Positions 1,825-63,986 of a stretch of DNA of 64,000 nt are shown here, in pieces. Position numbers and translations under genes: made by a program. Below the pieces are notes generated by a model, which saw nothing but the letters and a program-made list of their open reading frames with translations, made no database searches and was not told where the DNA came from. Position 1 is the stretch's first letter. Each line of letters opens with the position of its first letter. Source of the DNA: an uncultured Candidatus Saccharibacteria bacterium (GTDB lineage Bacteria > Patescibacteriota > WWE3 > UBA101185 > UBA10185). Location: contig CAZEBU010000002.1 of the NCBI GenBank assembly GCA_964510435.1, positions 5,458-69,457 of the forward strand, given 5' to 3'.

Positions 1825-1883
1825 AAATCAAATGGCGATATCGTAGTCATATTTTAACATTATGGATTTGTTACTTGTTATAA

Positions 1884-2771: not shown

Positions 2772-2780
2772 TGACTTAAA

Positions 2781-9594: not shown

Positions 9595-9635
9595 AACTGA
9601 TAAACATCCTACCCGATTTTTTGGAAATGTTAAAA

Positions 9636-11761: not shown

Positions 11762-11801
11762 GTCTAACCAGGTTAGACCAGGGTGATCTAGGTTAGACCT
11801 T
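11762..11801. terminator. Inverted-repeat hairpin (GGTCTAACC / GGTTAGACC, with a second GGTTAGACC copy) between convergent genes. Probable bidirectional terminator.
   Basis: The sequence is ctaGGTCTAACCaGGTTAGACCagggtgatctaGGTTAGACCt. It sits in the 31-nt gap between the + membrane gene (stop 11761) and the - rSAM gene (stop 11793). Confidence 0.4.
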
Positions 11802-18494: not shown

Positions 18495-18497
18495 ATT

Positions 18498-19970
18498 TTA
18501 TTGATAGATATATATCTTAGGACCTTTTCTATACTCGTTATCAATACTCAAGAGCAATTTTCTATCAGCTTTGCCCGCATCTTCCGAGACAAGAACCGAT
18601 CTTGCCACCATATCATCCGCTTTTTTGATATGTACATTTTTTATCTCCACCCTCTCCAACACAGGTTTAAAATCAGCGTCTTCATAATACACAGTACTTA
18701 ACTCTCTCTTATTATCCTGAAGCCAATAATATAGCAGCTGGCGGGTGTCTTTTCGATAAAAAGTATAAGAACCTTGTAAAGTCAGCAAAACCGGTACTAA
18801 AAAAACCACCACCCAGATAAGTTCTTTATACTTGAACTTAAATTTAAACTTCTCCAAAGCTGAGATCAACAAACCAATGCCGCTGATAATAACAAATGGG
18901 TAGGCTACAAAATAATAGTGTGCCCGGTCATTCTCAAAACCTGTAATGTAGTATATGAAAAGCATACCCAGAACATTAAGATACAAAAGATCCCTTGTGT
19001 TAAAAAAACTTTTGTCTTTAATGATTTTCAGCAAGATATAAAACACAGAAACCAGAAACATAATTGCAAATGTATAACCAAAGTTCTCAAAAAGTTTTTC
19101 CGGAAAAATTAGAATAAATTCTCTAATATGCTCTCCTAAAGGCAAACTACCCACATTCTTAAATTGCCATAAAGCACCTTTCGGGCCATCCGTTCTTAAA
19201 AAAGTCTGGTAATCAAGAACGGCAAAGGGAGTTCCCGCCACAAAACCTATTAAAGAAGTAATTCCTGCAAAAACAAGGTTCTCTAAAGACTCCAAACTAA
19301 TTATTTTTTCGCTTCTTTCCCACCACAACCTAAAAAAATGCGCGAGTAAAATAGCAAAGATGATAATGGCTCCGTTATACTTTGTAGAAGCGGCCAAGCC
19401 CGCAAACAAGCCTGCTAATAAGTAATTAGAAACATTTTTCTTAAAGAGTATCCGTGTTGAAAAATAAAGCGACCAAGTAAGAAAAAAGGTCATAGGGACA
19501 TCCGCCAGCGAATAGTGAGAATGCCATACATGAAAGGGAACAACAGCAAAAGCCAGCGCCGAGAGTAAACCTGCTCTCCTGCCAAATAGATCCCTGCCAA
19601 TCAAAAATATAGGTAAAGCCGTTAAAGCACCTAAAACAGCTGAAAAAACTCTGGTTAACAAGTAGAAGATCAGTTTGTCATTCCAGATTATAGGTGCCAA
19701 GAAATAAGTATATTCCTTATAACCTAAGAGCTGGATCAAATCTCTTAATTTTGCAAAAACCATGTATAAGAAATAATTTAGGTATATATAGAGATGCGGC
19801 CAGTCAAAATGCCCGGGATTCTTAAAAAATCTAATACCTAGTGCTGAGCGAACGATGGTTGGCTCATCAGGGTGAAAAATAAATGGGAAAGAATGTGAAA
19901 TACCAATAAGCCTAATGGCTATGCCCACAGCTATAATTATTATAAGATATTTACTTGTCTTGTTTAACAT
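18498..19970 (-). CDS. GT-C-type membrane glycosyltransferase (GT39/ArnT/PMT_2-like)
   Basis: An HPDEP acidic motif sits in the first periplasmic loop after TM1 (IFHPDEPTIVRSALG). There are about 11 TMs and a short C-terminal soluble domain. Confidence 0.65.
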   Translation of the reverse strand: MLNKTSKYLIIIIAVGIAIRLIGISHSFPFIFHPDEPTIVRSALGIRFFKNPGHFDWPHLYIYLNYFLYMVFAKLRDLIQLLGYKEYTYFLAPIIWNDKLIFYLLTRVFSAVLGALTALPIFLIGRDLFGRRAGLLSALAFAVVPFHVWHSHYSLADVPMTFFLTWSLYFSTRILFKKNVSNYLLAGLFAGLAASTKYNGAIIIFAILLAHFFRLWWERSEKIISLESLENLVFAGITSLIGFVAGTPFAVLDYQTFLRTDGPKGALWQFKNVGSLPLGEHIREFILIFPEKLFENFGYTFAIMFLVSVFYILLKIIKDKSFFNTRDLLYLNVLGMLFIYYITGFENDRAHYYFVAYPFVIISGIGLLISALEKFKFKFKYKELIWVVVFLVPVLLTLQGSYTFYRKDTRQLLYYWLQDNKRELSTVYYEDADFKPVLERVEIKNVHIKKADDMVARSVLVSEDAGKADRKLLLSIDNEYRKGPKIYIYQ

Positions 19971-21519
19971 AAAAACGCCAATATTCCAATCCGTTTATAA
20001 AAATAGACGAATCCTGGATAAATTTTACCTCACTTTTAAGAACTTTTTCGGGAATCTCTTCATTTACAGCCAGAACAAGAATTTTATAATCTCCGGTACC
20101 GGAAATTCTAATATCTGAAACCAGGGAGTTGGGATAGATTGATCTTATGGGTTTTGTGTCTATGAATCCCACCTTTACTTGAGAACCATAATTCTCCTGT
20201 AGATGTTTCTTAACTTCAAAAATGCCTATACCAAAAGATTTCTGGGCTATTATCTTGTTGGCTTGCTGACTATTTCCGAATAAGGGACTGGTATAGGTAA
20301 ATTGGTAAGGGTGTAGCTTGATCACCGGCCAGATAACGTAGACCATAAATATTATTAAGAAAAGGAGTTTAAGGTTTTTATGAGAGTGATAAACTTTTAG
20401 CAGGCGGCAATATCCAAAAACAGCCATGATACCTAAGATGGGAAAGAGTACTATCATGTACCTATCGAGTTTCTTTGCGGGAAAAGTCATGACCAGAAAA
20501 TATCCCAGATAGAAAATGGCAAGATATATAAAAAGTCTTTTGGCTTTTTCTTTTAAATTCATCTTCGAAAAACTTCTTATAAAATTCAGGAGATAGAGCA
20601 ATACCCCACCTAGTAAGAAAGGCGATGTCTTCATTAATATCACTAGCGGATAAAAGAAAATACCCGGATCCTTGGTAAGCTCTCCAAAAAATATCTGACT
20701 ATGTCCTTTTCGAACACCTATTCTGCTACCTTCACTAAATATATCCTTTAGTACTTCCCACGGTTTATCCCACAAAGCAGGGAAAAATAAAAAAGTTGCC
20801 GCCAAAAAGGGTAGTGTGATTACTAAAACATACTTCAAAACTTTCCGAAAATCCCTCCGGGTATAATATAAGAAAGATCCTCCCACAATAATAGTGAATA
20901 GGTAGGCACCTACACCAATACTTCTGGTTAAAAAGGAGGCTGCTAAAAACAAGCCGCAAATTAAACCATAAGTTTTATCATCTGTCTTAATGTAAAGATA
21001 GGAAAGCAGTAACGAAGAAAAAATAAATAGCATAAAGATAAGGTCCATATGGTACAGTCTTGAATTACCAACAATAAAGGGCTCCATGCTCATAACAAAC
21101 ACCACCAGTAATGACTTTTTGAAGCCTATTACTTTTGTCAACCAGTAGATTATTAATATACTTAGCACTAGCTGTACCAAGACCAGGGAATATTTGGCAA
21201 TAAAGTGGAAAGCGTAAAAGCTAAATTGATCATAAAGGGTAATGTTGATGATCTGCTTAAAGATCTCTATAGGAATTCCCGTGAGCCACATTAAAGATAC
21301 GCCAGGATGATAGTGCTGATAAGTTTTGCTAAATATCTGGTGCTTAAGACCAACAACAAACTGTTCTGATCTGTAGTGCCAATTTACAGCATCCGGATTA
21401 ATTGTATCGAAACCCAGCTGAGGAAGTCTTGTGATAAGAAATAGGATCACAAAAACAAGTAGCCAAATGATGGTCTTTTTATTAAGCGTCTTTACCCAAT
21501 GCATAGATAACTCCTCCAA
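19951..21519 (-). CDS. GT-C-type membrane glycosyltransferase (PMT_2-like), paralog B
   Basis: QHYHPGVSLMWL aligns with KYHPGVTLMWL of 16863..18494, and the topology is the same. Length is 522 aa. Confidence 0.65.
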   Translation of the reverse strand: MEELSMHWVKTLNKKTIIWLLVFVILFLITRLPQLGFDTINPDAVNWHYRSEQFVVGLKHQIFSKTYQHYHPGVSLMWLTGIPIEIFKQIINITLYDQFSFYAFHFIAKYSLVLVQLVLSILIIYWLTKVIGFKKSLLVVFVMSMEPFIVGNSRLYHMDLIFMLFIFSSLLLSYLYIKTDDKTYGLICGLFLAASFLTRSIGVGAYLFTIIVGGSFLYYTRRDFRKVLKYVLVITLPFLAATFLFFPALWDKPWEVLKDIFSEGSRIGVRKGHSQIFFGELTKDPGIFFYPLVILMKTSPFLLGGVLLYLLNFIRSFSKMNLKEKAKRLFIYLAIFYLGYFLVMTFPAKKLDRYMIVLFPILGIMAVFGYCRLLKVYHSHKNLKLLFLIIFMVYVIWPVIKLHPYQFTYTSPLFGNSQQANKIIAQKSFGIGIFEVKKHLQENYGSQVKVGFIDTKPIRSIYPNSLVSDIRISGTGDYKILVLAVNEEIPEKVLKSEVKFIQDSSIFINGLEYWRFYVKQDK

Positions 21520-23894: not shown

Positions 23895-26018
23895 TTAATT
23901 TACTGTTACCGTGCCTAAATACATGCTTCGGGTTCTTATTTTATTTCCCATACCTACAAATAAAAGATACTCTCCCGAATCAAGGAATTCAGGGGCAACC
24001 ACCTCAACACTCTCAAAATAATATCTGTTTTTTTCCCACTCCTCAGGCCTTTTTAAGGAAAAAGAGGGTAGATTAGCTAATTGATAAACTTCACCTGTTT
24101 CGCGGTTAACAAATGAGGTAAACATGAGATAGTCCTCTAAAGAAGTGTCCTTTTTAGATCCACTACCCCATCGGTGATAAACAATGTCAATTTTCTTGCT
24201 AATTCCTTTCTCAAAAACTTTGGGAATTTCGTAATCAACCACATTTACTCCTTGGAAAAATTCATAATCAAACTTGCCATCATAACGAAATATTTCTTGT
24301 ATAGGTAAAAGGGTTTCTTTATCATGTGGCCCTACTTTTTCGAAAACAAAAAAGTTCCCACAGCCGATTTTCAGTTCGTAATCTTCGCTTTTGATAACTT
24401 TCTCCACCACGTCCCTGATAATTTCCACGTCTATGTCCAAAATTGTGGTTATTTTTCTAGCAAAGACATCTATAATAAGGTAATCTGCCTCGTTATAAAG
24501 TGCCGGGAAAATGGCATACGTTTCTCTTTTAGCTAGGTGAGCGCCAAATGAATCTGAGCCGGAAACCGAAGCCCCGTCCGGTATCATTTTAACAATTTTT
24601 AATGCACACTCGCGATCTTTATCCTCCAGCTCTGTTAAACGCACAACTTCTCCTGTTGTCAGGTCTTTTTTGATAATTCCCTTGTCTGTCTTGGCAAAAA
24701 CTCGGGAAACGATTCTCTTCTGAAATGCCTGAGAAAGCCACAAATAAACCGGATTGTTGTAATAATGCATGGTAGTCAGGCTGAAAACAAAAACAAGCAG
24801 CGAAAACACCACTACGGTGTGTTTCTTTTTGATGTACTTCCGGAAAATATTCGAAAAATAGCCAATGGTCAATATTGTCGCGATGAACAAAACGGGAATG
24901 ATCATGGATATTCTATGATTGGTTATCTCCGCAGTACCGATACCTCCAGCAGAGGTCATAAAATTAATAATTAGATCCGGAAAAGCCATCGCCAAGGCTA
25001 AGGGGTGAGCAAAAGGCAGAAAAGCCAACGGCTCAAAAGTTCTACGAAAATTCTCCACTTTATCCCCTCCAAAGAAGACGCTCACCGATCTATCGGGCAT
25101 CAAAACTATATTTTTGGCTATTTCCAAATATGAATCACCAAATTCCTCATACCTATTAAGAAAATAATTGGGTAGGGCCACATCCCTCACGGTTGATCCC
25201 TGAATTCCCAAAGATTCGGCAAACTTTAAATAACCTTCCACCCTATATGAAGAATAGGCTGGAATAATTACAAAAAATGAAAGGAAAAACCAAACGGCAC
25301 TTACTAAAATCATGCTTGATCCCAGCTTGCCTGTTTTTGAAGAAAGCATACTTTTTAGATCCGGGTTTTCTTCATTCCTTAACAAAATGATAAATACCCC
25401 AAACATAAAGATATACAAGGGTACCTGCTCTTTTCCCATCATGGTAATTATTAAAAACACCCAAAAAAGAATCAGCGAGTTCTTATTGAGTGTGTTTTTC
25501 CGGTAATTTTTTTCGAAAATATAAAAGGCCGCTAAGAAAAACGGGATGACCGCCGTAACCCCATGAAAACCAGACCAAGCTGTTATATAACCTATGGAAG
25601 GATTTACCAAATAGGCTGTAGCTAGTAAAAAGGCAGCAAATTTTGATTGCAAATGAAGCTTAGCTATCGCATAAACCAAAAATGACGAAAAAATGACCAA
25701 TATTAACTGCGAGACCACCAAAGTCATAGCGTGTGGAAACAATTTAAAAATAGGTACAAAGAGATATAAAACAGGATCAACATGACTCATAGCCCACCTC
25801 GGTAAATTAGTCCCAAAATAATCAGTTAAGTATAGTCCTCTTCCTTGGCCGGCATTCCAAACCATTTGTGTCATATTCCCTAGATCAAATTTGCCGTAGT
25901 CAAAATTGCTATATCTAAAGAAATTTATCTTCAATGTTGCCGCCAACATTACCATGGAAAATAAAAATAACAAAACCAAAAAACCATGCTTTTTCATAAA
26001 AATAAAAATCTTTTGCAT
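23895..26018 (-). CDS. DUF2079-family membrane protein (predicted GT-C-like) with a large C-terminal extracytoplasmic domain
   Basis: The N-terminus FFRYSNFDYGKFDLGNMTQMVWNAGQGRGLY...SHVDPVLYLFVP matches the DUF2079 signature. Length is 707 aa. Confidence 0.6.
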   Translation of the reverse strand: MQKIFIFMKKHGFLVLLFLFSMVMLAATLKINFFRYSNFDYGKFDLGNMTQMVWNAGQGRGLYLTDYFGTNLPRWAMSHVDPVLYLFVPIFKLFPHAMTLVVSQLILVIFSSFLVYAIAKLHLQSKFAAFLLATAYLVNPSIGYITAWSGFHGVTAVIPFFLAAFYIFEKNYRKNTLNKNSLILFWVFLIITMMGKEQVPLYIFMFGVFIILLRNEENPDLKSMLSSKTGKLGSSMILVSAVWFFLSFFVIIPAYSSYRVEGYLKFAESLGIQGSTVRDVALPNYFLNRYEEFGDSYLEIAKNIVLMPDRSVSVFFGGDKVENFRRTFEPLAFLPFAHPLALAMAFPDLIINFMTSAGGIGTAEITNHRISMIIPVLFIATILTIGYFSNIFRKYIKKKHTVVVFSLLVFVFSLTTMHYYNNPVYLWLSQAFQKRIVSRVFAKTDKGIIKKDLTTGEVVRLTELEDKDRECALKIVKMIPDGASVSGSDSFGAHLAKRETYAIFPALYNEADYLIIDVFARKITTILDIDVEIIRDVVEKVIKSEDYELKIGCGNFFVFEKVGPHDKETLLPIQEIFRYDGKFDYEFFQGVNVVDYEIPKVFEKGISKKIDIVYHRWGSGSKKDTSLEDYLMFTSFVNRETGEVYQLANLPSFSLKRPEEWEKNRYYFESVEVVAPEFLDSGEYLLFVGMGNKIRTRSMYLGTVTVN

Positions 26019-26726: not shown

Positions 26727-28262
26727 TTAGTCCACAAATTTCAAAATTTTCGTAAAAAACTCGGTACCTCTGATAGTATATCTGAATTCTTTTACCTCTT
26801 CTAAATGATCAACTTTCCGGGCATCAAAATCCATGGTGGGATTGTGCTCATTAGTGATCATAACGTAATCCAGGTTTTTCTCTGATAAAACATCATAGGT
26901 CCTTCCCACCCTAGCATCCATATTAAGATAAATTCCGGTAAGGTCGTCACCAGTTTGCCGGCGGTTTAAATACCAGTCTGAGACACTGCTCACATCGTTA
27001 TAAGCTACCCTACCCTGTAAATTTTTTGTCACATAAAGATTGGCGTCTATAACAGCTTTAAATATGTCTTTGTGAAGTGAAATAGAAGCGTACGACCAAA
27101 TAATTAACGACAAAATTAAAGTAGCCATGAACCAGGTATACTTCTTGAAATAAATAAAACTGAAATTAGCTATCTGCAACAGTATAGCTGCGTACAACAA
27201 CTGCTTATCCAAGATCAAGAATTGCAATCTCAAAAAGTATTGTGATAACAAATAAACCATAAATAACAAGGGCAGAGATAGGGTAATTTTAAACGAAAGG
27301 ATCCTATCTTCATGAAAATATTGGTAAATTGACATGGCCAAAGGAATGATCATAAGAGGAATTATGGGAGTAAATAATCTAGGAATAGCGGCGGGCCAAA
27401 TTAAAGCTAAGGTTAATTCTAAGATTATAAAGATACCCAAAGCTAAGTTTGTTGACAATAATCGTTTTAGCTTCCCATGTTTGCCAAAAACAAAAAAGAA
27501 GGCTGAGGTAAAACCAAAAAGATACAGTAAGGAAGCAAGATAGATCACAACCATACGCACATCATAAGCCCTGCCGCTTGGCTCCTCTAAATAGCTCGAG
27601 GTAAGGGGATTCCTGTACAAAAACCAAGGCATCATCACCAGAAGAAAAGTGATAAAAAGAACCGCCGCCTGCTTGATCTTTTCAGGCTTAAAACCCTTAA
27701 GCAACATACCCAAACCTAGAGATGCGCCCAAAAGATACCCTTCAAACCTCATCAGTGAAGCTAAACCTACAACTAGACCCAGCAGAGCTATTTTCCGGTA
27801 ATTTAAGTTTCCTTGCCATTTCCGATAAAGATAAAAAAGTAAGATTACCAAAGCGGTAAAAGGCAGGTCTGCCATAATCCGTATTGACCAGTAGAGTAAA
27901 ACCGGATTAAAAGTAAATAATAGTAAAGCCAGATCCTTAGTGCCTTTTTCCAGACTATAAGTCTCCAGTAATTTTTTAAATAGTAAAAAGGCGGCCAGAC
28001 TGAAAACAAACATTTCCACCCTACCCCAAAGCGCCTGATCCACATTTTCAGGTCTAAGGGCTAAAAGTAATGAAAACAAGGGTTGCCTCTTCTCATCTTC
28101 GGGGTACTCTCCCTGCCTGATAAACTCTGAGGCTCTCAATATGCGGTAGCTATCCCCCCACTCAGCATAATTAATGTTAAAGAGCAGTAGGTGGGTAACA
28201 ACAAAGATCCAAAATAATTTATTGGAGGTAATTTTCTTTAACACGCTTGTATATTCCCTCAA
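26727..28262 (-). CDS. GT-C-type membrane glycosyltransferase (GT39/GT83-like)
   Basis: The N-terminal polytopic region has an acidic first-loop motif (YAEWGDSYRILRASEF..YPEDE). The C-terminal ~130 aa are soluble. Length is 511 aa. Confidence 0.6.
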   Translation of the reverse strand: MREYTSVLKKITSNKLFWIFVVTHLLLFNINYAEWGDSYRILRASEFIRQGEYPEDEKRQPLFSLLLALRPENVDQALWGRVEMFVFSLAAFLLFKKLLETYSLEKGTKDLALLLFTFNPVLLYWSIRIMADLPFTALVILLFYLYRKWQGNLNYRKIALLGLVVGLASLMRFEGYLLGASLGLGMLLKGFKPEKIKQAAVLFITFLLVMMPWFLYRNPLTSSYLEEPSGRAYDVRMVVIYLASLLYLFGFTSAFFFVFGKHGKLKRLLSTNLALGIFIILELTLALIWPAAIPRLFTPIIPLMIIPLAMSIYQYFHEDRILSFKITLSLPLLFMVYLLSQYFLRLQFLILDKQLLYAAILLQIANFSFIYFKKYTWFMATLILSLIIWSYASISLHKDIFKAVIDANLYVTKNLQGRVAYNDVSSVSDWYLNRRQTGDDLTGIYLNMDARVGRTYDVLSEKNLDYVMITNEHNPTMDFDARKVDHLEEVKEFRYTIRGTEFFTKILKFVD

Positions 28263-34009: not shown

Positions 34010-35128
34010 TTAATCCTTTTTCCAAATAACCCGGCTATAGACCGTATAATTCCAAATTAATCCTACTAAAATACCAATAAAAAACGCTGCATAAGCTACT
34101 GGTGTAGTATCGCCAAAGTTGCCAATAGAAAATTTAATGAGCCAAGTCCTAAATATTATTGGAATATATGAGGAAATAAAATAGAGCGCAAAACTTGTTA
34201 CTCTCTTTTTCGTGCCGGTTATTTTTCTCTTTCGAAAAGACCACAGATCGTTAAGGGTATAAGTGGTAAGCATGCCGGCAAATCCTGAGACGGCACTAGC
34301 AGTGGTTGAACCTAAAGGGGTCAGCCTTAAGAGAGTGAAAAGTCCGCTATCAATAAAAAGGCCGGCAAATCCTACAAAAATAAATTTTATAAAGCTTTTG
34401 CTATCCTGATACCTCAAAAGTATGATTACCCTCAGAGAATCAAGCATATTTTCCCTCTCCATTTTTGAATTTCCCCTATCTCTTAAACCAAATTTTATGG
34501 GTACCTCAACGATCTTGGCCCCAAGACGGTGCATTTTAAATAAAAGATCCATTTTGTAAGCGAATCCACTGGAATTAACTTCATCAAGGTTAATGCGGTC
34601 TACAAACCCTTTTACCCTGGAAATTTTATAACCCGTTGTGAAATCGTTGACACTAAATATACCCAAAACCACCTTAGTAAAAATATTCCCGGCTAAACTT
34701 ATAAACTTTCTATAAAACGCCCATTCCTTTGGTATACTTCCACCTTTAATATAACGTGAACCAATAACATAATCTGCACCTTTATCTAAGGCGGCCACTA
34801 ATTTTGATAGATCCTTGGGATCGTGCTGAAAATCTGCATCCATCTCTACTAAAGCTTCCGGGTGAAGATCATGCAAAGCGTATTTGAATCCATACACATA
34901 GGCGTCCCCTAATCCCACCTTTTCTTTTTTCGAAAGTAAATGTACGCTGGCATGCTTCTCTGACAACCTTCTAACTACGTTCCCTGTTCCATCCGGAGAA
35001 CTGTCATCTACTACCAATATCTCAAACTGATGTTGCGGGATCTTATTGAACTCATTCAAAAGCATACCAATCAGACGCCTGATATTATCCGCTTCATTAT
35101 ATGTAGGAATGATCACTACTATCTTCAT
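34010..35128 (-). CDS. Polyprenyl-phosphate mannosyl/glycosyl-transferase: a GT2 catalytic domain fused to a C-terminal GtrA-like 4-TM domain
   Basis: IVVIIPTYNEADNI...ILVVDDSSPDGTG and EMDADFQHDP are present. The C-terminal ~120 aa are hydrophobic (FIFVGFAGLFIDSGLFTLL...), as in Ppm1/GtrB-type enzymes. Confidence 0.8.
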   Translation of the reverse strand: MKIVVIIPTYNEADNIRRLIGMLLNEFNKIPQHQFEILVVDDSSPDGTGNVVRRLSEKHASVHLLSKKEKVGLGDAYVYGFKYALHDLHPEALVEMDADFQHDPKDLSKLVAALDKGADYVIGSRYIKGGSIPKEWAFYRKFISLAGNIFTKVVLGIFSVNDFTTGYKISRVKGFVDRINLDEVNSSGFAYKMDLLFKMHRLGAKIVEVPIKFGLRDRGNSKMERENMLDSLRVIILLRYQDSKSFIKFIFVGFAGLFIDSGLFTLLRLTPLGSTTASAVSGFAGMLTTYTLNDLWSFRKRKITGTKKRVTSFALYFISSYIPIIFRTWLIKFSIGNFGDTTPVAYAAFFIGILVGLIWNYTVYSRVIWKKD

Positions 35129-35140
35129 AGCTTGTAAATC

Positions 35141-35398
35141 TTAGATACTAAGTGCAGTTAAAACAAGGAGAAAAACAAAAAAACCTATGAGAATATATTC
35201 TAAAGCTATTTGAAAGTCAAATCTACCTTCGAGTATGTGATGGATTATTCCCCAAAGTACATAAAATACAGCTGCCAAGGCCGTAATAATTATCCTCAGC
35301 TGTTTATCATTACCCACATAAAAAAACAATGCCACAAAGGTAGTGATTCCCAGCAAAATAACAGTGTATTCAACTAGCTTATAACTTTTAAACCTCAT
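35141..35398 (-). CDS. Small 2-3-TM membrane protein (85 aa), unknown function
   Basis: The sequence is entirely hydrophobic. Its start overlaps the stop of the CAP gene as ATGA, consistent with translational coupling in the operon. Confidence 0.45.
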   Translation of the reverse strand: MRFKSYKLVEYTVILLGITTFVALFFYVGNDKQLRIIITALAAVFYVLWGIIHHILEGRFDFQIALEYILIGFFVFLLVLTALSI

Positions 35399-36375
35399 AA
35401 AATGACTCCCGGAAAGACAGAAAGCATCACGCTAACAATGACCACAAGTAGAAATACCAAATGCGCCAAGGTATGGCCGGTTACTTTTAAAATACCGTGT
35501 CTTTTTGAATACCAAATATCTATACCTAGTAAAGTGGTGATAAATCCTCCAAAGGTGATAGTGATCGATCTGGTAACATTGCGAACGTCTATGGCCGGTT
35601 TCGTTTCTACGACTTCTTTGGATACTAGCAAGGCTAATTGCTTGTCTTCAATGATTTCCTTAACGGTCTCTCCTTCTACACTGGTAACGGCCTCAGGCAC
35701 AGTCGGGGGTACAACCTCAAAGACAGCTTCTTCTCCAGTGTCCACTAGCCGATTGGCAGCGGCAACTTGCGTAGGTACTCTAGAACGACCAAACATTTGC
35801 ACTACCAATGTTGTTTCATATCCCTCCAAAACTCCATTTACAATGGCAAAGCCAATGTCATCGTAATTTGCACTAAGTAAATTTTCTCTGTGCGTGGGGG
35901 ATTCGTACCAGGCCTCTACAACTTCCTTAGAGTTATAAAAATTTTTAGCCAAATTTTCTCCTGCATAAGTGTAATCGTACCCCTCTGAGAGAATAAAATC
36001 CCATGGCTTAGTGCCCAAAGGAGAGACGTGAGCCCAATATTCATACGCGTACATATCCTGAGCTTTTCTTTCGGCAGCCTTGCTTAATGCGTGGTTTAGT
36101 TGTAACGGTTTTAGACCCAATTTTGATCTTCTTTCGTTGGTGTATCTCAAAAGATCATCCGTGCTAATGTTAGAGGCATATCCTAATATCCCCGGCGCCA
36201 AAATAGGTAATATGCGCAGCATGATAACCAAAAGAACTAAGATCAAACTGTAGGTGACAAAGGCTCCCTGAGTTAATAATTTTGCTCTTGTACGATTTGT
36301 TTCGTGGGGAACGAAATGATAAATAAAACGATATTTCTGTATTGAATCCGAGTCTTTTGGCAGACGTGCTTTCAT
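35395..36375 (-). CDS. Membrane-anchored CAP/SCP/PR-1-like domain protein (YkwD-like)
   Basis: The CAP domain region is YAYEYWAHVSPLGTKPW...YAGENLAKNF..AWYESPTHRENLLSANYDDIGFAIVNG. It has an N-terminal signal-anchor helix. Confidence 0.75.
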   Translation of the reverse strand: MKARLPKDSDSIQKYRFIYHFVPHETNRTRAKLLTQGAFVTYSLILVLLVIMLRILPILAPGILGYASNISTDDLLRYTNERRSKLGLKPLQLNHALSKAAERKAQDMYAYEYWAHVSPLGTKPWDFILSEGYDYTYAGENLAKNFYNSKEVVEAWYESPTHRENLLSANYDDIGFAIVNGVLEGYETTLVVQMFGRSRVPTQVAAANRLVDTGEEAVFEVVPPTVPEAVTSVEGETVKEIIEDKQLALLVSKEVVETKPAIDVRNVTRSITITFGGFITTLLGIDIWYSKRHGILKVTGHTLAHLVFLLVVIVSVMLSVFPGVIL

Positions 36376-58569: not shown

Positions 58570-59112
58570 TTAGTTTATATAACCAACCTGAGAAGGGGGC
58601 CAAAATCTAAAAACTACCCTACCCACTATGCGTTCTACGTCAATAAGACCAAAAACCCTCGAATCTGCTGATCTACCACGATTATCCCCCAGAACCATAT
58701 ACTCGTTTTCTTCAATTTTTAGCGATCTACCCTCTTTTATACGTCCTCCGGCTGTAGTACAAGTATCTTCTTGTAAATATGGTTCGTCCAGCTTATATTT
58801 TTTCCCACCCCTATTTATATAAACCTCACAATTATATATTTTAACGATATCTCCGGGAACTGCAATAATTCTTTTAATAAAATCGACATTATCGTTTTGC
58901 GGAGGGTTTAAAACAACCACTTCCCCAATTTCATAGTCCTTGAAATATTTAGTGATCTTCTCCACTAATATCCTTTCGCCACCGTAAAAATTGGGTTCCA
59001 TGCTTGCGCCCTGTACTTGTTCGGGCATAGCAATGGTAGTATAAATAATTAATATTACAATAGCGCTGGTAATAGCGGTTTCGATTAGTTCTAGGATTGT
59101 GTTCTTGTTCAT
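58570..59112 (-). CDS. lepB: Signal peptidase I (S26 family)
   Basis: The catalytic Ser box is GASMEPNF. Box D/E is VLGDNRGRSADSR. The N-terminal signal anchor is also present. Confidence 0.9.
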   Translation of the reverse strand: MNKNTILELIETAITSAIVILIIYTTIAMPEQVQGASMEPNFYGGERILVEKITKYFKDYEIGEVVVLNPPQNDNVDFIKRIIAVPGDIVKIYNCEVYINRGGKKYKLDEPYLQEDTCTTAGGRIKEGRSLKIEENEYMVLGDNRGRSADSRVFGLIDVERIVGRVVFRFWPPSQVGYIN

Positions 59113-59138
59113 TGCTGTATCATAATATCATTAGAAAA

Positions 59139-60719
59139 ATGAAACAAGTAGAATTAAAAATAGCTTCATTTAAAGATTTAAAAAGGGTGCTTGTCTCTAA
59201 TATTCCGCTTTTTTTAATCGTGGCTGTACTTGCCATTATTACTTTTATTAATGGCGTAAACGGAGAGTTCGTCTCAGATGACATTCCCGGAATTGTTAAT
59301 CATCCGGACGTGATTAATTTAGGGAACGCATTTAAATCCGGTAATTTACAGGTTATGCTGCAGGGAACGATTTACTCTGTCTTTGGGGCAAATGAAGTTC
59401 CTTTCCATCTTTTTTCTTTGTTCTTGCATATTGTAAATTTGGTTCTTTTCTTTTTCATCATCTATAACATTTTCAGCAAGAAAATCGCAGCCATTGCCAT
59501 GGTTTTGTATGCTGTGCACCCTTTAATATCAGAATCACTCTTATGGATCTCCGCAGTCAACTACCTGCTATCTACCTTCTTTCTCTATGTCTGCACGTTA
59601 CTGTACCTTATGTATAAAAAGAATCAAGATAGAAGGTATCTTATTACCGTTTTCTTATTGTTTGCCTTTTTAGGTGTATTTTTCCCCAATTTCTGGGTTC
59701 TCATTATTCCGCTTCTTATCGCAGGTATAGACTTCTTTTTGCTTAAAACAAAAATCAGTCTTAAACCTCTTTTAAAACTTTCACCACTCTTCATAATTTC
59801 TATCGTGGTATTTCTATACATAGGATTTTTCCAAAGTGAGATCTCAGTATCAGAGAGGATAGAATCTTTGGACACACCGGAAGCCACGCCGTTCTTAAAC
59901 AGGCTTCCTTATTCCATTTACATGGTGGGTGAATTGCTTATTTACCCTAAAAATCTTACTCTTTACCACGAAGGGGAGATGATCTCTACTTTCAAATATC
60001 AAGCTATGACCGTAATAGCAATCTTAGTCATACTGGGGTTAATTTATCTTTGGAAGAAACCTAAATACAGAATTGTCGCTGGTTTGATAACACTAATATT
60101 TATCTCTGTTCTACCGGTATTTAGCCCCCTACAGGTTGCTTGGTTTGCCGCGGAAAGATATCTCTACGTGGCTGCCGGGTTTTTTACAACACTTCTGGCA
60201 ATGCTTTTCTTAAAGCTAGATCGAAAATGGAAAGGCAAAAATCTAGCCATTATTCTTACCGTTTTGTTAACCGTAGTCTATTCAGGAAGAAGTATTGCTC
60301 GAACATTTGACTGGAAAACCAGAAAATCGGTCTGGCTCTCAACCGCTAAAGTCTCACCGTACAGTGCGCGTGTTCATAACAACCTAGGAGATGTCTATGG
60401 CATAGAAAACGACTGGCAAAGATCAATACAACACTTTGAAACAGCCATTCAACTTAAACCTGACTACAGTGAAGCAATGCATAACTTAGGAAACACCTAT
60501 ATGCGCATGGGGCAGCTTGAAACGGCAAGGGAATTACTATTAGCCTCCTTAAAAATTAATCCTGCGCTTTTCCAATCACTTCACAAGCTTGGTTTGGTTG
60601 AATACAACCTAGGAAATCCGGAAACTGCAGAAAAATATTTTGTGAAAAGTATAGAAGTCAATCCAAATTATCTACCGGCTGTTCAAGCTTTACAAACTTT
60701 GCGGCAAAGAACCCAGTAA
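59139..60719 (+). CDS. TMTC-like protein: a DUF1736/PMT_2-type GT-C membrane domain followed by C-terminal TPR repeats
   Basis: GEFVSDDIPGIVNHPDV, FHLFSLFLHIVNLVLFF and YAVHPLISESLLWISAVNYLLSTFF parallel the conserved blocks of eukaryotic TMTC O-mannosyltransferases. About 11 TMs are followed by four or more TPRs (..ARVHNNLGDVYGIENDWQRSIQHFETAIQLKPDYSEAMHNLGNTYMRMGQLE..). The start is chosen at MKQVELK (59139). The track ORF at 59097 overlaps the lepB start. Confidence 0.7.
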   Translation: MKQVELKIASFKDLKRVLVSNIPLFLIVAVLAIITFINGVNGEFVSDDIPGIVNHPDVINLGNAFKSGNLQVMLQGTIYSVFGANEVPFHLFSLFLHIVNLVLFFFIIYNIFSKKIAAIAMVLYAVHPLISESLLWISAVNYLLSTFFLYVCTLLYLMYKKNQDRRYLITVFLLFAFLGVFFPNFWVLIIPLLIAGIDFFLLKTKISLKPLLKLSPLFIISIVVFLYIGFFQSEISVSERIESLDTPEATPFLNRLPYSIYMVGELLIYPKNLTLYHEGEMISTFKYQAMTVIAILVILGLIYLWKKPKYRIVAGLITLIFISVLPVFSPLQVAWFAAERYLYVAAGFFTTLLAMLFLKLDRKWKGKNLAIILTVLLTVVYSGRSIARTFDWKTRKSVWLSTAKVSPYSARVHNNLGDVYGIENDWQRSIQHFETAIQLKPDYSEAMHNLGNTYMRMGQLETARELLLASLKINPALFQSLHKLGLVEYNLGNPETAEKYFVKSIEVNPNYLPAVQALQTLRQRTQ

Positions 60720-61542
60720 AAAAACCATTAGGAAAGACTTTTTTAACTTCGAGAAGGCTTATTTTTTTGAATTTTTCCAAAATCCAAGTGACAACCTTTT
60801 CATTTTCTTCCTTGCTATAAGTGCAGGTTGAGTAGACCAAAGTTCCTCCGGGTTTAAGCATATTGATTGCTGACGCAGCTAGTTTTTTTTGTAATTTTGA
60901 AAGCTTCTTTGGTAATCTTGGATACCAATACTTTAGTGGATCAGGATCAGCTAAACAGATGAGACCTTCATTAGAGCAAGGGGCGTCCAACAAAACTTTA
61001 TCAAAGTAGTTATTAAAAAGTTTATACTTTCTTTCTAAACCAACCCCGTTATTATTAATAACCTCCACGTTAGAAAACTTTTGTCTCTTAAGATTATCTT
61101 CCATTTTGAAGATCCTTTTTTTGTTATTGTCTACTGCCACTATCTGGGCACGGCCTTTAGTAACATGCGCTATCTGAGAAGTCTTACTACCAGGAGCAGC
61201 ACACATATCCAATATCCTTTCACCTTCCTGAGGATCAAGCATAATCACCGGCAGCATGCTGGATAACCCCTGGATATATATTTTTCCCTGATCTACAAGC
61301 TCTGTCTCCGATAATTTAAGGTTGTCAGGACCTTCTTTAACAATGTAACTACTATAAAAAGGCCCAGGTTTTACTCCGAAACCCTGACTTCTTAGTTCTC
61401 GGAGAGCGTCATTTGTACTTATCCGGTTAGTATTTACACGAAAGGTTACCGGCGGCTTTGTATACAAGTGCTGCATTATTCTCACATGCTTAGGGCCAAA
61501 TATATTTTGCACCTTCTGAATGAAAATATCCTTTTTTTCCAT
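60658..61542 (-). CDS. NOL1/NOP2/Sun-family RNA (m5C) methyltransferase (RsmB/RsmF-like catalytic core only)
   Basis: The SAM-binding motif is DMCAAPGSKTSQIA. The catalytic Cys motifs are DKVLLDAPCSNEGL and TLVYSTCTYSKEENE. Confidence 0.85.
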   Translation of the reverse strand: MEKKDIFIQKVQNIFGPKHVRIMQHLYTKPPVTFRVNTNRISTNDALRELRSQGFGVKPGPFYSSYIVKEGPDNLKLSETELVDQGKIYIQGLSSMLPVIMLDPQEGERILDMCAAPGSKTSQIAHVTKGRAQIVAVDNNKKRIFKMEDNLKRQKFSNVEVINNNGVGLERKYKLFNNYFDKVLLDAPCSNEGLICLADPDPLKYWYPRLPKKLSKLQKKLAASAINMLKPGGTLVYSTCTYSKEENEKVVTWILEKFKKISLLEVKKVFPNGFFTGFFAAKFVKLEQPVDNLD

Positions 61543-61984: not shown

Positions 61985-63115
61985 ATGAACGCGGAAAACA
62001 ATTTTACCTTATGGACAAAGAAATACGGAAACGAAACCAGCGGCCATATATCAGCACACACTTCACAAATTTTACAGTCGCAGAATAGTCCGCACCGTAT
62101 TACGTCTAGCAGTAATCCCATAATCCTAAAAAAATCCTCTTATATAAAAACGGGTAAGTACCCTAAACATTTAAATTTTGGAAGGAACAAATTATTTGCC
62201 TCATATATCGAAGGGTGTGGTATCGATATGTTTGAATTTGTAGATAATAAACTGATAAAAATAACAAGCAATAAACTACCTGCAAGCTGCATTCATTCAA
62301 TCATATATCGTAATTTAATCTACGTTTCTGTATCAACTTTATGTAGTAAAAAATCAAAAAAGGATTTACTTGCTGTACTAAATGCGGACAATCTAGAAAA
62401 ATTAGAGCTCGTGAGTACTCGAGGTAAGTGGTCAAAGTTCATAAAAATACATCCAACCCAACCATTACTTTTCGTATCAAATTGGTTTTCAAACGATCTA
62501 AGCGTATTCGACATTCACAACCCTGAAAAACCTGTTTTCCTAAGAAAAATAAAATGTGGAATTTCTCCAAGAGGGATAGATTTCACCCCAGATGGCAAAA
62601 TTGGGTTAGTAGCATGCTACTACTCAAGAAATATCGTTGAAATAAAAGTAAGTGGAGAATCGAATGTAAAGGTTACCTACATAGGTAAACCATACGATTA
62701 TCCAAATTACTCAGGGAATATGCGGGATATTAAAATTATAAATAATAAAAGTGCAATTGTTTCAAATATGGGGCGTAATTTAATTCACCTATACAGCATT
62801 AAAAAAAGGAAAATAGTAAAATCAACAATTGTTGGAAAACATCCAAACAGTATTACTATTTACAAAAATTCCCATGTTCTTGTAAGTTGTTTCCTGTCAA
62901 ACAGATTATATCTACTAAATGTGCCTGGTTTGAAAATTCTTGGTGTGTCAAGAGCCACAGGAAAAAACACAGTTGGTTTGGCAACATTTGGTGAAACTGT
63001 ATTTTCATCAGCTTTCGGCAGTGGTTTGATAGAAGTGTGGAAACCAGCTAAACAAATAAATAAAACAAACCCGCGGATAGGAGGGAGGCGAACGCCTGCA
63101 CCAACCAAAACCTAA
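61985..63115 (+). CDS. YVTN-family beta-propeller repeat protein (lactonase/7-bladed propeller-like)
   Basis: Propeller-blade repeats such as GISPRGIDFTPDGKIGLVACYYSRNIVEI and HPNSITIYKNSHVLVSC are present. The last ~20 codons overlap the mraY 3' end in antisense. The basic tail RIGGRRTPAPTKT may be read-through artefact. Confidence 0.6.
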   Translation: MNAENNFTLWTKKYGNETSGHISAHTSQILQSQNSPHRITSSSNPIILKKSSYIKTGKYPKHLNFGRNKLFASYIEGCGIDMFEFVDNKLIKITSNKLPASCIHSIIYRNLIYVSVSTLCSKKSKKDLLAVLNADNLEKLELVSTRGKWSKFIKIHPTQPLLFVSNWFSNDLSVFDIHNPEKPVFLRKIKCGISPRGIDFTPDGKIGLVACYYSRNIVEIKVSGESNVKVTYIGKPYDYPNYSGNMRDIKIINNKSAIVSNMGRNLIHLYSIKKRKIVKSTIVGKHPNSITIYKNSHVLVSCFLSNRLYLLNVPGLKILGVSRATGKNTVGLATFGETVFSSAFGSGLIEVWKPAKQINKTNPRIGGRRTPAPTKT

Positions 63116-63986
63116 AAACTACTTTAGTACCATTCCAACCAATAGCTTCAAAATGATGATGTAACGGAGCAATTTTAAATACGGTTTTGCCTCTAAAATA
63201 CAAGGAAAACCACTGAATCAAAGATGTCGATGCATCAACAATATAAACAAATCCAAAAACCGGTAACAAATAAAAAGTCCCTGTGGTTAAAGTAAGCACA
63301 CCGATAATTGAACCTAATGCAAGGGCACCCGTATCACCCATAAATAACCTGGCGGGGTTGATATTAAAGTATAAATAAGCCAACACGGCTCCAAACACTA
63401 CAAAAACGAATGTTAGATCTGCTAGGTCCCCGGTTGTATTTGAGACGAAAAATCCCAAAGTAAGTAAGGTGATCAATAAAGATCCGGAAGACAACCCGTC
63501 AATACCGTCAATTATATTGAAGGCATTACTCAGAAAGATTATGGTTAAAACAGAAATAGCAAAGAGTAGCCAAAATGATGTGACCTCAAAATTAAAAAAG
63601 GGGATATTTACGCGGAATAAATTATTTGTAACCCCCCAGTAACTAATTAAGGATCCTGCAGAGAGCTGAATTAATAATTTATGGCGTACTCTAAGGGCTA
63701 ATCCCCTAAATCTAAAAACCTTCTTAAAATCATCATAAAATCCCATCAAACCAAAGATAATTAAACTAAAAGTGAAAAGAAGATACTTCTCTCTGCTAAT
63801 TTCGTAGGCACTTCCGTAGTACAGAAAAGTATAAATAAACAAGACAACCAGAACTATTAGTATTCCACCTCCGGTAGGCGTTCCTGACTTATGCGCTTTA
63901 ATTTTGTCGAAAACATCCATGACCTGCCCAAACCTATCTTTTCTGTGTTTTTTTCTAAAAGGATCCTGCAATTTGAATCTATACAA
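63048..63986 (-). CDS. mraY: Phospho-N-acetylmuramoyl-pentapeptide transferase MraY (N-terminus possibly clipped by the window end)
   Basis: The Mg-binding region is GTPTGGGILIV and NAFNIIDGIDGL. The His-rich loop is KIAPLHHHFEAIGW. The protein is polytopic. Confidence 0.85.
   Translation of the reverse strand: MYRFKLQDPFRKKHRKDRFGQVMDVFDKIKAHKSGTPTGGGILIVLVVLFIYTFLYYGSAYEISREKYLLFTFSLIIFGLMGFYDDFKKVFRFRGLALRVRHKLLIQLSAGSLISYWGVTNNLFRVNIPFFNFEVTSFWLLFAISVLTIIFLSNAFNIIDGIDGLSSGSLLITLLTLGFFVSNTTGDLADLTFVFVVFGAVLAYLYFNINPARLFMGDTGALALGSIIGVLTLTTGTFYLLPVFGFVYIVDASTSLIQWFSLYFRGKTVFKIAPLHHHFEAIGWNGTKVVFRFWLVQAFASLLSAGLFYLFV

What the first reader, a model, noticed from the sequence alone, without database searches (positions are those of the whole stretch)
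59139..60719. Bacterial TMTC-like protein (GT-C membrane domain plus TPR array)
The membrane domain shows blocks matching eukaryotic TMTC1-4 O-mannosyltransferases (FV.DD..IVNHPDV; HL..L.LH; HP...E....I..R...L..LF). It is followed by four or more TPR repeats. In TMTCs the TPRs select protein substrates, so this architecture argues for protein-directed O-glycosylation. The required polyprenyl-P-sugar donors would be supplied by the Dpm1-like synthases in the large cluster. It is encoded apart from the main glycosylation locus and on the opposite strand. Its 3' end overlaps the Sun-family methyltransferase gene by 62 nt.
Basis: partly seen in the sequence, partly recalled or inferred. Interest (0 to 1): 0.55.

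Follow-up and report, generated by a model that had tools for sequence, protein, structure and literature searches.

The report
Bacterial TMTC-like membrane glycosyltransferase with TPRs
This gene encodes a membrane sugar-transferring enzyme with a short outward-facing TPR tail, a true but divergent bacterial relative of the animal TMTC protein O-mannosyltransferases; relatives like it are very common in bacteria and none appears to have been studied, so it is a sound but fairly ordinary find.

Summary
Window 59139-60719 (+) encodes a 526-aa protein with an 11-helix GT-C membrane domain (residues 1-~392). Three TPR repeats and a capping helix (~395-525) follow, predicted to lie outside the cell.

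Its membrane domain is homologous to animal TMTC3/4 over its whole length (hhalign probability 100%, E 6.7e-40). The window's four other GT-C proteins match neither profile.

It is a divergent member. The Pfam DUF1736 model does not hit. Of the seven published TMTC ligand-site motifs, the loop-1 DD and ERxxY are kept, one of the two PxxP prolines is kept, and four are missing: SHKSYRP, RxD, KE(T/Q)xxT and DW. The donor sugar therefore cannot be assumed to be mannose.

The gene is not a chimera. The same architecture and the same rpoC-rpoB-lepB / gene / rsmF neighbourhood recur in independent WWE3/Patescibacteria assemblies, and three of them repeat the convergent overlap.

A profile of the membrane domain finds 121,147 protein clusters. 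Full-length prokaryotic TMTC homologues were already noted in 2021.

The protein acceptor and the link to the DPMS-like donor synthases are inference only.

Verdict: new member of a known kind, with modest interest.

The parts
59139..60719 (+). Complete gene for the 526-aa TMTC-like GT-C glycosyltransferase with a C-terminal TPR domain
   Evidence: ORF. The N-terminus and C-terminus are conserved in 26 homologues. An identical protein is present in public assemblies (P0001). The AF2 model has pLDDT 90.4 and pTM 0.89.
59139..60314 (+). Membrane domain (residues 1-392): 11 transmembrane helices, GT-C fold, N-terminus inside the cell
   Evidence: AF2 helices. Foldseek PDB hits to STT3, PglB, AglB, Pmt4, ALG9 and ArnT with TMq about 0.45-0.54. 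hhalign to the TMTC N-domains gives probability 100% and E 6.7e-40. K+R count is 22 in inside loops against 6 in outside loops.
59268..59312 (+). Outside loop 1 block FVSDDIPGIVNHPDV (residues 44-58) with the putative catalytic pair D47-D48 (TMTC motif M1)
   Evidence: D47 is conserved in 95% and D48 in 98% of 181 family representatives, and both in 100% of ungapped TMTC sequences. The block aligns to TMTC FVFDD.
59517..59564 (+). Outside loop 2 block HPLISESLLWISAVNY (residues 127-142). H127, P128 and E132 are shared with TMTC. The TMTC RxD/E motif (M3) is replaced by V140 and Y142.
   Evidence: Column frequencies: family Y142 in 169 of 181; TMTC has R at the first position and E/D at the second. 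Alignment.
59688..59696 (+). Outside loop 3, N184-F185-W186, at the position of TMTC motif M4 KE(T/Q) (lysine and glutamate absent)
   Evidence: hhalign and hmmalign columns. Distant family members P0035, P0036 and P0039 still carry SK(E/P/G) at this position.
59946..59978 (+). Outside loop 4 block PKNLTLYHEGE (residues 270-280). P270 and L273 are invariant and shared with TMTC. The TMTC DW (M5, core of DUF1736) is replaced by Y276-H277.
   Evidence: No PF08409 hit in any member.
60150..60167 (+). Outside loop 5 block AERYLY (residues 338-343), equivalent to TMTC motif M7 ERxxY (predicted phosphate contact)
   Evidence: E339 is conserved in 88%, R340 in 99% and Y343 in 99% of the family, and in 97-99% of TMTC sequences.
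60288..60335 (+). Junction between the membrane domain and the TPR domain, RSIARTFDWKTRKSVW (residues 384-399), conserved with TMTC KTxxRNxDWxSExTLF
   Evidence: R388, D391 and W392 are conserved in both groups and the junction aligns. This argues for one ancestral fusion and against a chimera.
60366..60716 (+). Three TPR repeats (residues 410-443, 444-477, 478-511) and a capping helix (512-525), predicted to lie outside the cell
   Evidence: Pfam TPR_1 E 3.7e-21 with 3 stretches. Consensus-TPR and OGT TPR structures match. AF2 helix pairs. Odd number of transmembrane helices with N-terminus inside.
58570..59112 (-). Signal peptidase I gene (lepB), head-to-head neighbour 26 nt from the start codon; conserved neighbour in relatives
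   Evidence: TIGR02227 scores 133.5 bits against a cut-off of 47. Peptidase_S26 lies next to the homologue in L001, L003, L005 and L006, and one gene away in L002.
60658..61542 (-). NOL1/NOP2/Sun-family (RsmB/F-like) RNA m5C methyltransferase gene, convergent, overlapping the 3' end by 62 nt
   Evidence: Pfam Methyltr_RsmB-F E 4e-44 and NCBIfam. The same convergent overlap (41 nt) occurs in L001, L003 and L005.
34010..35128 (-). DPMS-type polyprenyl-phosphate glycosyltransferase (GT2 catalytic domain plus GtrA/DPMS transmembrane domain); a possible but unproven donor synthase
   Evidence: 5mlz Pyrococcus DPMS E 7.4e-46, query residues 1-333 of 372. Pfam Glycos_transf_2 and GtrA_DPMS_TM.

Best explanation
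The gene encodes an integral-membrane glycosyltransferase of the GT-C fold. It belongs to the TMTC (CAZy GT105-like) superfamily and is a divergent, Patescibacteria-type member.

Proposed mechanism:
- Eleven helices place the large first and fourth loops and the C-terminal 3-TPR domain on the outer face of the cytoplasmic membrane.
- The enzyme takes a sugar from a polyprenyl-phosphate-linked donor that has been made on the cytoplasmic face and flipped across.
- It transfers that sugar to an acceptor held near the loop-1 D47-D48 pair. E132, R340 and Y343 contribute to donor and phosphate binding.
- The acceptor is most likely a Ser/Thr hydroxyl of an exported or envelope protein docked by the TPR domain. 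This follows the example of animal TMTCs and of the Pseudomonas pilin glycosyltransferase TfpW, which has the same architecture.

What is shown: the fold, the homology to TMTC, the topology, the conservation of the DD and ERxxY motifs, and the conserved gene context.

What is inferred: catalytic activity, the lipid-phosphate donor, the protein acceptor, and the role of the TPRs.

The sugar is unknown. It need not be mannose, because the TMTC motifs modelled as mannose and metal contacts are absent.
For: - Fold: AF2 models with pLDDT 90.4 and 88.6. Foldseek of the membrane domain returns GT-C enzymes as the top 21 hits: STT3, PglB, AglB, Pmt4, ALG9 and ArnT.
- Homology: hhalign of the family profile against an alignment of real TMTC3/4 N-domains gives probability 100%, E 6.7e-40 and 361 aligned columns. 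The family HMM hits 117 TMTC proteins, up to 175 bits. The TMTC HMM hits all 181 family proteins, and the query at 56.6 bits.
- Specificity: the window's other GT-C proteins are not hit by either HMM, and hhalign probability is 16% or less.
- Shared near-invariant residues include F44, D47, D48, H97, H127, P128, E132, P270, L273, P326, A338, E339, R340, Y343, R388 and W392.
- Topology: K+R count of 22 inside against 6 outside, with 11 helices.
- Architecture is conserved in 39 homologues from independent assemblies.
- Possible donor synthases and flippases are present in the same window.
- A distant homologue (P0031) sits head-to-head with a GT2/GT4/methyltransferase/B12-radical-SAM cluster. 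That cluster resembles the 5' end of this window's glycosylation locus.
- The published analogue TfpW has 11 transmembrane helices, a DDx motif in loop 1 and periplasmic TPRs, and is required for pilin O-glycosylation.
Against: - Pfam DUF1736 does not hit, and PMT_2 is only at threshold.
- TMTC motifs M2 (SHKSYRP), M3 (RxD), M4 (KE) and M5 (DW) are absent. M4 and M5 are the modelled metal and phosphate ligands. This leaves open that the chemistry differs or that activity is lost.
- There are only 3 TPRs, against many more in TMTCs.
- The window holds no candidate acceptor: no prepilin-type gene and no Ser/Thr-rich protein.
- The lepB adjacency travels with a whole syntenic block (rpoC-rpoB-lepB) and is lost in the distant homologue. 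It is therefore weak evidence for a functional link.
- No bacterial member of this family was found to be characterised.
- Homology to TfpW was not tested.
Confidence: 0.6

Rival explanations
1. It is an active GT-C enzyme, but the acceptor is not a protein. It decorates a lipid-linked or wall-attached glycan or a glycolipid, as ArnT, Emb/Aft and the GT-C components of three-component glycan-modification systems do. In this reading the TPR domain acts as a scaffold that docks partner enzymes or the polymer.
For: - ArnT and other glycan- or lipid-directed GT-Cs are among the structural neighbours. ArnT was reported as the closest solved homologue of TMTCs (PMC7801869).
- The conserved neighbourhood includes cell-envelope genes: mraY at 63048-63986, Glycos_transf_4 genes in L001, L005 and L006, and a Mur ligase in L003.
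- A distant homologue is linked to a polysaccharide-type GT2/GT4 cluster.
- No acceptor protein is evident nearby.
Against: - The only characterised proteins with this exact architecture, TMTCs and TfpW, act on proteins.
- Sequence relationship to TMTC is strong, whereas the window's PMT_2/ArnT-type proteins are not detectably similar.
Confidence: 0.25
2. It is a catalytically dead or repurposed GT-C scaffold (a pseudo-enzyme). It would use the TPR domain and membrane domain for assembly or chaperoning of exported proteins next to signal peptidase, without transferring sugar.
For: - The modelled TMTC metal and phosphate ligands (M4 lysine and glutamate, M5 aspartate) and the mannose contacts (M2, M3) are lost.
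- The gene has a conserved head-to-head position with lepB.
Against: - The loop-1 DD pair is kept in 95-98% of 181 subfamily representatives. E132 is kept in 98%, R340 in 99%, Y343 in 99%, H97 in 98% and H127 in 97%. This pattern is expected only if the active site is under selection.
- The replaced positions are themselves conserved (Y142 93%, Y276 90%, W136 99%). This suggests a remodelled site rather than a decayed one.
Confidence: 0.08
3. It is an oligosaccharyltransferase that transfers a pre-assembled glycan en bloc from a polyprenyl-diphosphate carrier, as PglB/STT3 or PglL do. In this reading it does not transfer a single sugar.
For: - The best Foldseek matches of the membrane domain are STT3, PglB and AglB.
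- The window has Wzx-type flippases and many GT2/GT4 enzymes able to build a lipid-linked oligosaccharide.
Against: - Foldseek E-values are weak (about 5e-4) and identities are 12-14%. This reflects the shared GT-C core only.
- There is no sequence-level match to any solved OST.
- The clear sequence relatives, the TMTCs, are considered monosaccharide transferases using Dol-P-Man.
Confidence: 0.07

Closest known systems
Animal TMTC1-4 protein O-mannosyltransferases (CAZy GT105; Pfam DUF1736 plus TPR)
   Same: - Eleven-helix GT-C membrane domain followed by a TPR domain on the non-cytoplasmic side.
- End-to-end profile homology (hhalign E 6.7e-40).
- Shared DD (M1), HP..E, P..L in loop 4 and ERxxY (M7) motifs, and a shared R..DW junction into the TPRs.
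   Different: - No DUF1736 Pfam hit.
- Motifs M2, M3, M4 and M5 are absent or replaced (Y142, N184-F185-W186, Y276-H277).
- Only 3 TPRs.
- The protein sits in the bacterial cytoplasmic membrane, not the ER.
- The donor would be a bacterial polyprenyl phosphate sugar of unknown identity, not Dol-P-Man.
- About 20% identity.
Uncharacterised prokaryotic full-length TMTC homologues (annotated 'tetratricopeptide repeat protein' or 'protein O-mannosyl-transferase')
   Same: - This is the group the protein belongs to. A profile of the membrane domain finds 121,147 cluster representatives at E<=1e-3.
- Such prokaryotic homologues with a transferase domain plus TPRs were noted by Eisenhaber et al. 2021.
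- Named relatives come from candidate division WWE3, Patescibacteria and Omnitrophota.
   Different: - The query belongs to a subfamily whose loop motifs differ from the more canonical bacterial members. P0035, P0036 and P0039 keep YRP/YHP-type, R.D-type and SK-type motifs.
- No member has a demonstrated function in the literature searched.
Pseudomonas aeruginosa TfpW (pilin D-arabinofuranosyl transferase, GT-C)
   Same: [quoted passage not shown] It glycosylates a protein.
   Different: - Sequence homology to TfpW was not tested here because no sequence was available.
- tfpW lies directly downstream of the pilin gene, whereas no prepilin gene is present in this window.
- TfpW is 646 aa.
PMT/ArnT-type GT-C enzymes (Pfam PMT_2/PMT; GT39, GT83), including the streptococcal Pgf system
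   Same: - GT-C fold.
- Loop-1 acidic pair.
- Polyprenyl-phosphate monosaccharide donors made by DPMS/GtrB/PgfS-like GT2 enzymes. The window's small GT2 proteins hit PgfS, AglJ, PpgS and ArnC models.
   Different: - Only a threshold-level PMT_2 hit.
- The three PMT_2 proteins in the same window are not detectably related to the target by HMMER or hhalign.
- PMT has a MIR domain and no TPRs. ArnT acts on lipid A.

Membership tests
TMTC superfamily (CAZy GT105-like) | Membrane domain homologous over its full length to the TMTC N-terminal domains | tested here: met
   hhalign probability 100%, E 6.7e-40, query columns 28-392 against TMTC 16-440. There are reciprocal HMMER hits, and the query scores 56.6 bits with the TMTC HMM. 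Four other GT-C proteins from the window score nothing.
TMTC superfamily (CAZy GT105-like) | GT-C fold with 11 transmembrane helices, N-terminus cytoplasmic and C-terminus on the other side | tested here: met
   AF2 model helices, Foldseek hits to GT-C enzymes, and a positive-inside count of 22 against 6. The topology is predicted, not measured.
TMTC superfamily (CAZy GT105-like) | M1: strictly conserved DD in loop 1 | tested here: met
   D47-D48 align to the TMTC DD and are 95-98% conserved in 181 relatives.
TMTC superfamily (CAZy GT105-like) | M2: SHKSYRP in loop 1 (modelled mannose contact) | tested here: not met
   The segment is deleted in the query clade: the alignment shows a gap opposite SHKSYRP. 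Distant members keep YRP/YHP/WHP.
TMTC superfamily (CAZy GT105-like) | M3: RxD/E in loop 2 | tested here: not met
   V140 and Y142 occupy these positions. The family has Y in 169 of 181, whereas TMTC has R and E/D.
TMTC superfamily (CAZy GT105-like) | M4: KE(T/Q)xxT in loop 3 (modelled phosphate and metal contacts) | tested here: not met
   N184-F185-W186 aligns to K-E-Q.
TMTC superfamily (CAZy GT105-like) | M5: DW in loop 4, and a match to Pfam DUF1736 (PF08409) | tested here: not met
   Y276-H277 aligns to D-W. No PF08409 hit at E<=1 in the query or in any of the 21 members scanned. P270 and L273 of the same loop are conserved.
TMTC superfamily (CAZy GT105-like) | M6: PxxP in transmembrane helix 9 | tested here: inconclusive
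   P326 aligns to a TMTC proline (96%). The second family proline, P330, aligns to a TMTC leucine, so the spacing is PxxxP.
TMTC superfamily (CAZy GT105-like) | M7: ERxxY in loop 5 | tested here: met
   E339, R340 and Y343 are 88-99% conserved in the family and 97-99% in TMTC.
TMTC superfamily (CAZy GT105-like) | C-terminal TPR array directly following the last transmembrane helix | tested here: met
   There are three TPRs plus a cap. The junction motif R388/D391/W392 is shared with TMTC. The array is much shorter than in animal TMTCs.
TMTC superfamily (CAZy GT105-like) | Lipid-phosphate-mannose-dependent O-mannosylation of protein Ser/Thr | not testable with these tools
   This needs biochemistry or glycoproteomics. 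Loss of M2 and M3 argues against assuming mannose.
Pfam PMT_2 (PF13231; ArnT/PMT-like GT-C) | Score at or above the gathering threshold of 26.1 bits | tested here: inconclusive
   The full-length protein scores 25.6 bits, below the threshold. The membrane domain alone scores 26.4 bits, just above it. Eleven of 21 relatives hit, with a best E-value of 8.4e-9.
TfpW-type pilin glycosyltransferases | Sequence homology to TfpW, and a gene adjacent to the pilin gene | not tested
   No TfpW sequence was available. The architecture matches the published description. No prepilin-type gene occurs in the window.

The most novel reading that the evidence does not exclude
The Y142 / N-x-W / Y276-H277 variant defines a Patescibacteria-type branch of the TMTC superfamily. 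In this reading its donor pocket has been rebuilt for a sugar other than mannose. It is kept as a single-copy core gene head-to-head with signal peptidase I. It acts as a general O-glycosyltransferase for proteins as they emerge from the Sec translocon, for example pilins or surface adhesins used in episymbiosis. That would make it the first handle on protein glycosylation in ultra-small bacteria, and a prokaryotic model for how TMTC-type enzymes choose substrates.
Probability: 0.2. Interest if true: 0.6.

Novelty: new member of a known kind. Interest (0 to 1): 0.3.

Why it matters
TMTC enzymes matter in human development and disease, yet their activity has never been reconstituted and no structure was found in the PDB searches here. 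Bacterial relatives with the same architecture are extremely numerous (121,147 clusters), and no functional study of one turned up in the literature searched.

This gene adds a well-supported, compact example of 526 aa with 3 TPRs. It comes from a reduced CPR genome, where it is a conserved core gene. It also documents a subfamily in which only part of the TMTC ligand-site motif set survives.

That comparison shows which residues are universally required: the DD pair, HP..E, P..L, ERxxY and the R..DW junction. It also shows which ones are lineage-specific.

The gene does not reveal a new kind of system, and the organism is not tractable, so its immediate value is modest.

Tried and rejected
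- Sequence searches of the membrane domain against all PDB chains, as a single sequence and as a profile, found nothing.
- Foldseek with the full-length model returned only TPR proteins. A second model of the membrane domain alone was needed.
With the single protein it returned only spurious 27-residue matches in Streptococcus. The source organism was not identified beyond WWE3/Patescibacteria relatives.
- The cluster look-up gave no name for the identical protein.
- Promoter and terminator scans around the gene were no better than shuffled sequence.
- The upstream TTG start at 59097 was rejected because homologues begin at the ATG.
- The assembly-chimera idea was rejected. The architecture, junction and neighbourhood recur in independent assemblies.
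- The window has no prepilin-type motif and no Ser/Thr-rich real ORF, so no acceptor candidate emerged.
All conclusions rest on the real database TMTC proteins it retrieved.
Full report
**What is at the coordinates.** The + strand ORF ending at 60719 can start at TTG 59097 or ATG 59139. An identical protein exists in public assemblies on a 152-kb contig (P0001). The window has 35-42% G+C. The nearest named relatives come from candidate division WWE3, 'Patescibacteria group' and Omnitrophota metagenome-assembled genomes.

**Domain content.**
- Pfam finds three TPR repeats at residues 410-443, 444-477 and 478-511 (TPR_1 E 3.7e-21, three stretches).
- These repeats match consensus-TPR designs and the OGT TPR domain in the PDB.
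- The membrane part gives only a threshold-level PMT_2 hit. The full-length protein scores 25.6 bits and the membrane domain alone 26.4 bits, against a cut-off of 26.1. Eleven of 21 relatives hit.
- By that narrow test the TMTC idea would look weak, so I tested the relationship directly.

**Structure.**
- AlphaFold2 with the family alignment gives a confident model (pLDDT 90.4, pTM 0.89).
- It has eleven long hydrophobic helices, large first and fourth loops with short amphipathic helices, and then three helix pairs plus a capping helix.
- A separate model of residues 1-400 (pLDDT 88.6) was searched against the PDB with Foldseek. The top 21 hits are all GT-C enzymes: STT3 of OST complexes, PglB, AglB, Pmt4, ALG9 and ArnT. 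Query-normalised TM-scores (TMq) are about 0.45-0.54 and identities 12-14%.
- Sequence searches against the PDB found nothing.
- Lysine plus arginine counts are 22 in the short loops predicted to be cytoplasmic and 6 in the long loops predicted to be outside.
- The N-terminus is therefore inside, and loop 1 and the TPR domain are outside. This is the TMTC topology.

**Is it TMTC-like or just another GT-C?**
- I retrieved real TMTC3/4 proteins from the protein database. A remembered human TMTC3 N-domain served only as bait. The hits are named TMTC3/TMTC4 by NCBI and UniRef, and nearly all carry PF08409.
- A profile of the query family's membrane domains aligns to a profile of twelve animal TMTC membrane domains. 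The hhalign probability is 100% and the E-value 6.7e-40. The alignment spans 361 columns, from just before the DD motif to the last residues before the TPRs.
- With HMMER, the family model hits 117 TMTC proteins at up to 175 bits.
- The TMTC model hits all 181 family proteins, including the query at 56.6 bits in three colinear segments.
- Composition does not explain this. The window's three PMT_2-type GT-Cs, its DUF2079 protein and three other large ORFs with no Pfam match are not hit by either HMM. Their hhalign probabilities are 16% or less.
- The junction into the TPR domain is also shared. The query has R-S-I-A-R-T-F-D-W-K-T-R-K-S-V-W, and TMTC has K-T-x-x-R-N-x-D-W-x-S-E-x-T-L-F. This argues that the fusion of transferase and TPRs is ancestral.
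- It also argues against an assembly artefact. The same architecture occurs in all 39 homologues, which come from independent assemblies.

**How far the resemblance goes.** Eisenhaber et al. (PMC7801869) defined seven TMTC motifs around the modelled dolichyl-phosphate-mannose and metal sites.

| Motif | TMTC | Query | Status |
|---|---|---|---|
| M1 | DD in loop 1 | D47-D48 | kept |
| M2 | SHKSYRP | deleted | missing |
| M3 | RxD/E | V140 .. Y142 | missing |
| M4 | KE(T/Q) | N184-F185-W186 | missing |
| M5 | DW, core of DUF1736 | Y276-H277 | missing |
| M6 | PxxP | one of two prolines | partly kept |
| M7 | ERxxY | E339-R340-Y343 | kept |

- The HP..E block and P270/L273 of loop 4 are also kept.
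- The replacements are themselves conserved across 181 relatives: Y142 93%, W136 99%, Y276 90% and Y341 99%. D47/D48 are conserved in 95-98% and R340 in 99%.
- More distant bacterial members (P0035, P0036, P0039) still carry YRP-like, R.D-like and SK-like motifs.
- The query therefore belongs to a distinct subfamily with a remodelled site. The site does not look decayed.
- Because M2 and M3 are the modelled mannose contacts, calling it a mannosyltransferase is not justified.

**Size and prior knowledge of the family.**
- The membrane-domain profile finds 121,147 cluster representatives at E<=1e-3 and 37,980 at E<=1e-30, among 1.84 billion proteins.
- Sources name relatives 'tetratricopeptide repeat protein' or 'protein O-mannosyl-transferase'.
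- Eisenhaber et al. already stated that essentially full-length homologues, transferase plus TPRs, occur in many poorly characterised prokaryotes.
- I found no paper characterising a bacterial member.
- The closest characterised bacterial analogue by architecture is Pseudomonas TfpW. It has 11 predicted transmembrane helices, DDx in loop 1 and periplasmic TPRs, and it is required for pilin O-arabinosylation. I could not test homology to it.

**Genomic context.**
- The gene lies head-to-head with signal peptidase I. lepB occupies 58570-59112 and scores above the TIGR02227 cut-off. The start codons are 26 nt apart. rpoB and rpoC lie beyond lepB.
- Its 3' end overlaps a convergent NOL1/NOP2/Sun-family methyltransferase gene by 62 nt. 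mraY follows further on.
- The block rpoC-rpoB-lepB / TMTC-like gene recurs in contigs carrying homologues of 39-52% identity (L001, L003, L005, L006). In L001, L003 and L005 a convergent rsmF overlaps the gene by 41 nt; in L006 no rsmF gene follows it.
- L005 carries two tandem paralogues. L002 has an extra GT-C-like gene inserted.
- A homologue of 29% identity instead lies head-to-head with a GT2/GT4/methyltransferase/B12-radical-SAM cluster. That cluster resembles genes at the 5' end of this window.
- The lepB adjacency is therefore lineage-level synteny and is weak evidence for functional coupling. The link to glycan-building genes in a distant relative is mildly supportive of a glycosylation role.

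**The donor claim.**
- The window's first 35 kb is a large glycosylation locus. It holds GT2 and GT4 enzymes, two Wzx-type flippases, three tandem PMT_2 GT-Cs, a DUF2079 protein, a UDP-sugar dehydrogenase and an epimerase/dehydratase.
- ORF 34010-35128 is a DPMS-type enzyme with the four-helix GtrA/DPMS domain. It matches Pyrococcus DPMS 5mlz at E 7.4e-46.
- Two smaller GT2 proteins also have DPMS, ArnC and GtrB as their best matches, and PgfS, AglJ and PpgS among NCBIfam models.
- So lipid-phosphate sugar donors are plausibly made. However, the locus has its own GT-C consumers, and nothing ties any donor specifically to the target gene.

**Verdict.**
It is a genuine, divergent bacterial member of the TMTC superfamily with an outward-facing TPR domain.
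- Protein O-glycosylation is the most likely activity, but it rests on analogy. The sugar is unknown.
- It is a new member of a known, very large and uncharacterised bacterial group, and is of modest interest.

Noticed in passing
window 16863-21519 (-), 23895-26018 (-): There are three tandem PMT_2-type GT-C genes (543, 490 and 522 aa). A LPG_synthase_TM gene, a Wzx-type flippase and a DUF2079 membrane protein follow. Together they look like several extracytoplasmic lipid-phosphate-sugar transferases in one locus. None is detectably related to the TMTC-like gene.
   Followed up: partly
window 4043-7390 (-), 9473-11761 (+), 26727-28262 (-): Three large ORFs (1115, 762 and 511 aa) inside the glycosylation locus have no Pfam match at E<=1e-3. 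The 762-aa ORF, as listed from its TTG start, overlaps the 5' end of the divergent epimerase gene (8557-9594) by about 120 nt, so its true start is probably later.
   Followed up: no
homologues P0021, P0027, P0029, P0030, P0031, P0033 (alignment A1, columns 9-70): Several relatives carry an extra cytoplasmic N-terminal segment of about 50 residues (MKLSKAQKKFIKNNYK..LTPKEIAEKLGVSE...). It gives weak helix-turn-helix-type hits to IF2_N, HTH_24 and Sigma70_r4. The query lacks it. A DNA-binding-like domain on a GT-C enzyme is unexplained.
   Followed up: no
L005 4380-5951 and 6001-7548 (+): One relative's contig carries two tandem TMTC-like paralogues (523 and 515 aa) between lepB and rsmF. Both are strongly hit by the family HMM.
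   Followed up: partly
L002 4482-5933 (-): In a 1.1-Mb Patescibacteria contig, a 483-aa multi-pass membrane protein with no Pfam hit sits between lepB and the TMTC-like gene. Its sequence looks GT-C-like (acidic residues in a first loop, many helices), but it is not hit by the family or TMTC HMMs.
   Followed up: partly
L004 1-5908 (-) compared with window 177-4061 and 11793-13454: A distant homologue's neighbours are GT2, GT4, a class I methyltransferase, a B12-binding radical SAM protein and a radical SAM/SPASM protein. They mirror a gene set at the 5' end of this window (Methyltransf_23, GT2, GT4, B12-radical SAM). This suggests a recurrent module for a modified, possibly methylated, glycan.
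   Followed up: no
window 35395-36375 (-): A CAP/SCP-domain (cysteine-rich secretory protein family) protein of 326 aa is encoded between the glycosylation locus and the adk-secY-ribosomal protein cluster.
   Followed up: no
window 59113-59138: Only 26 nt separate the divergent start codons of lepB and the TMTC-like gene (9-26 nt in relatives L001, L003 and L006). Any promoters must therefore lie inside the neighbouring coding sequences. Consensus promoter scans were no better than shuffled sequence.
   Followed up: partly
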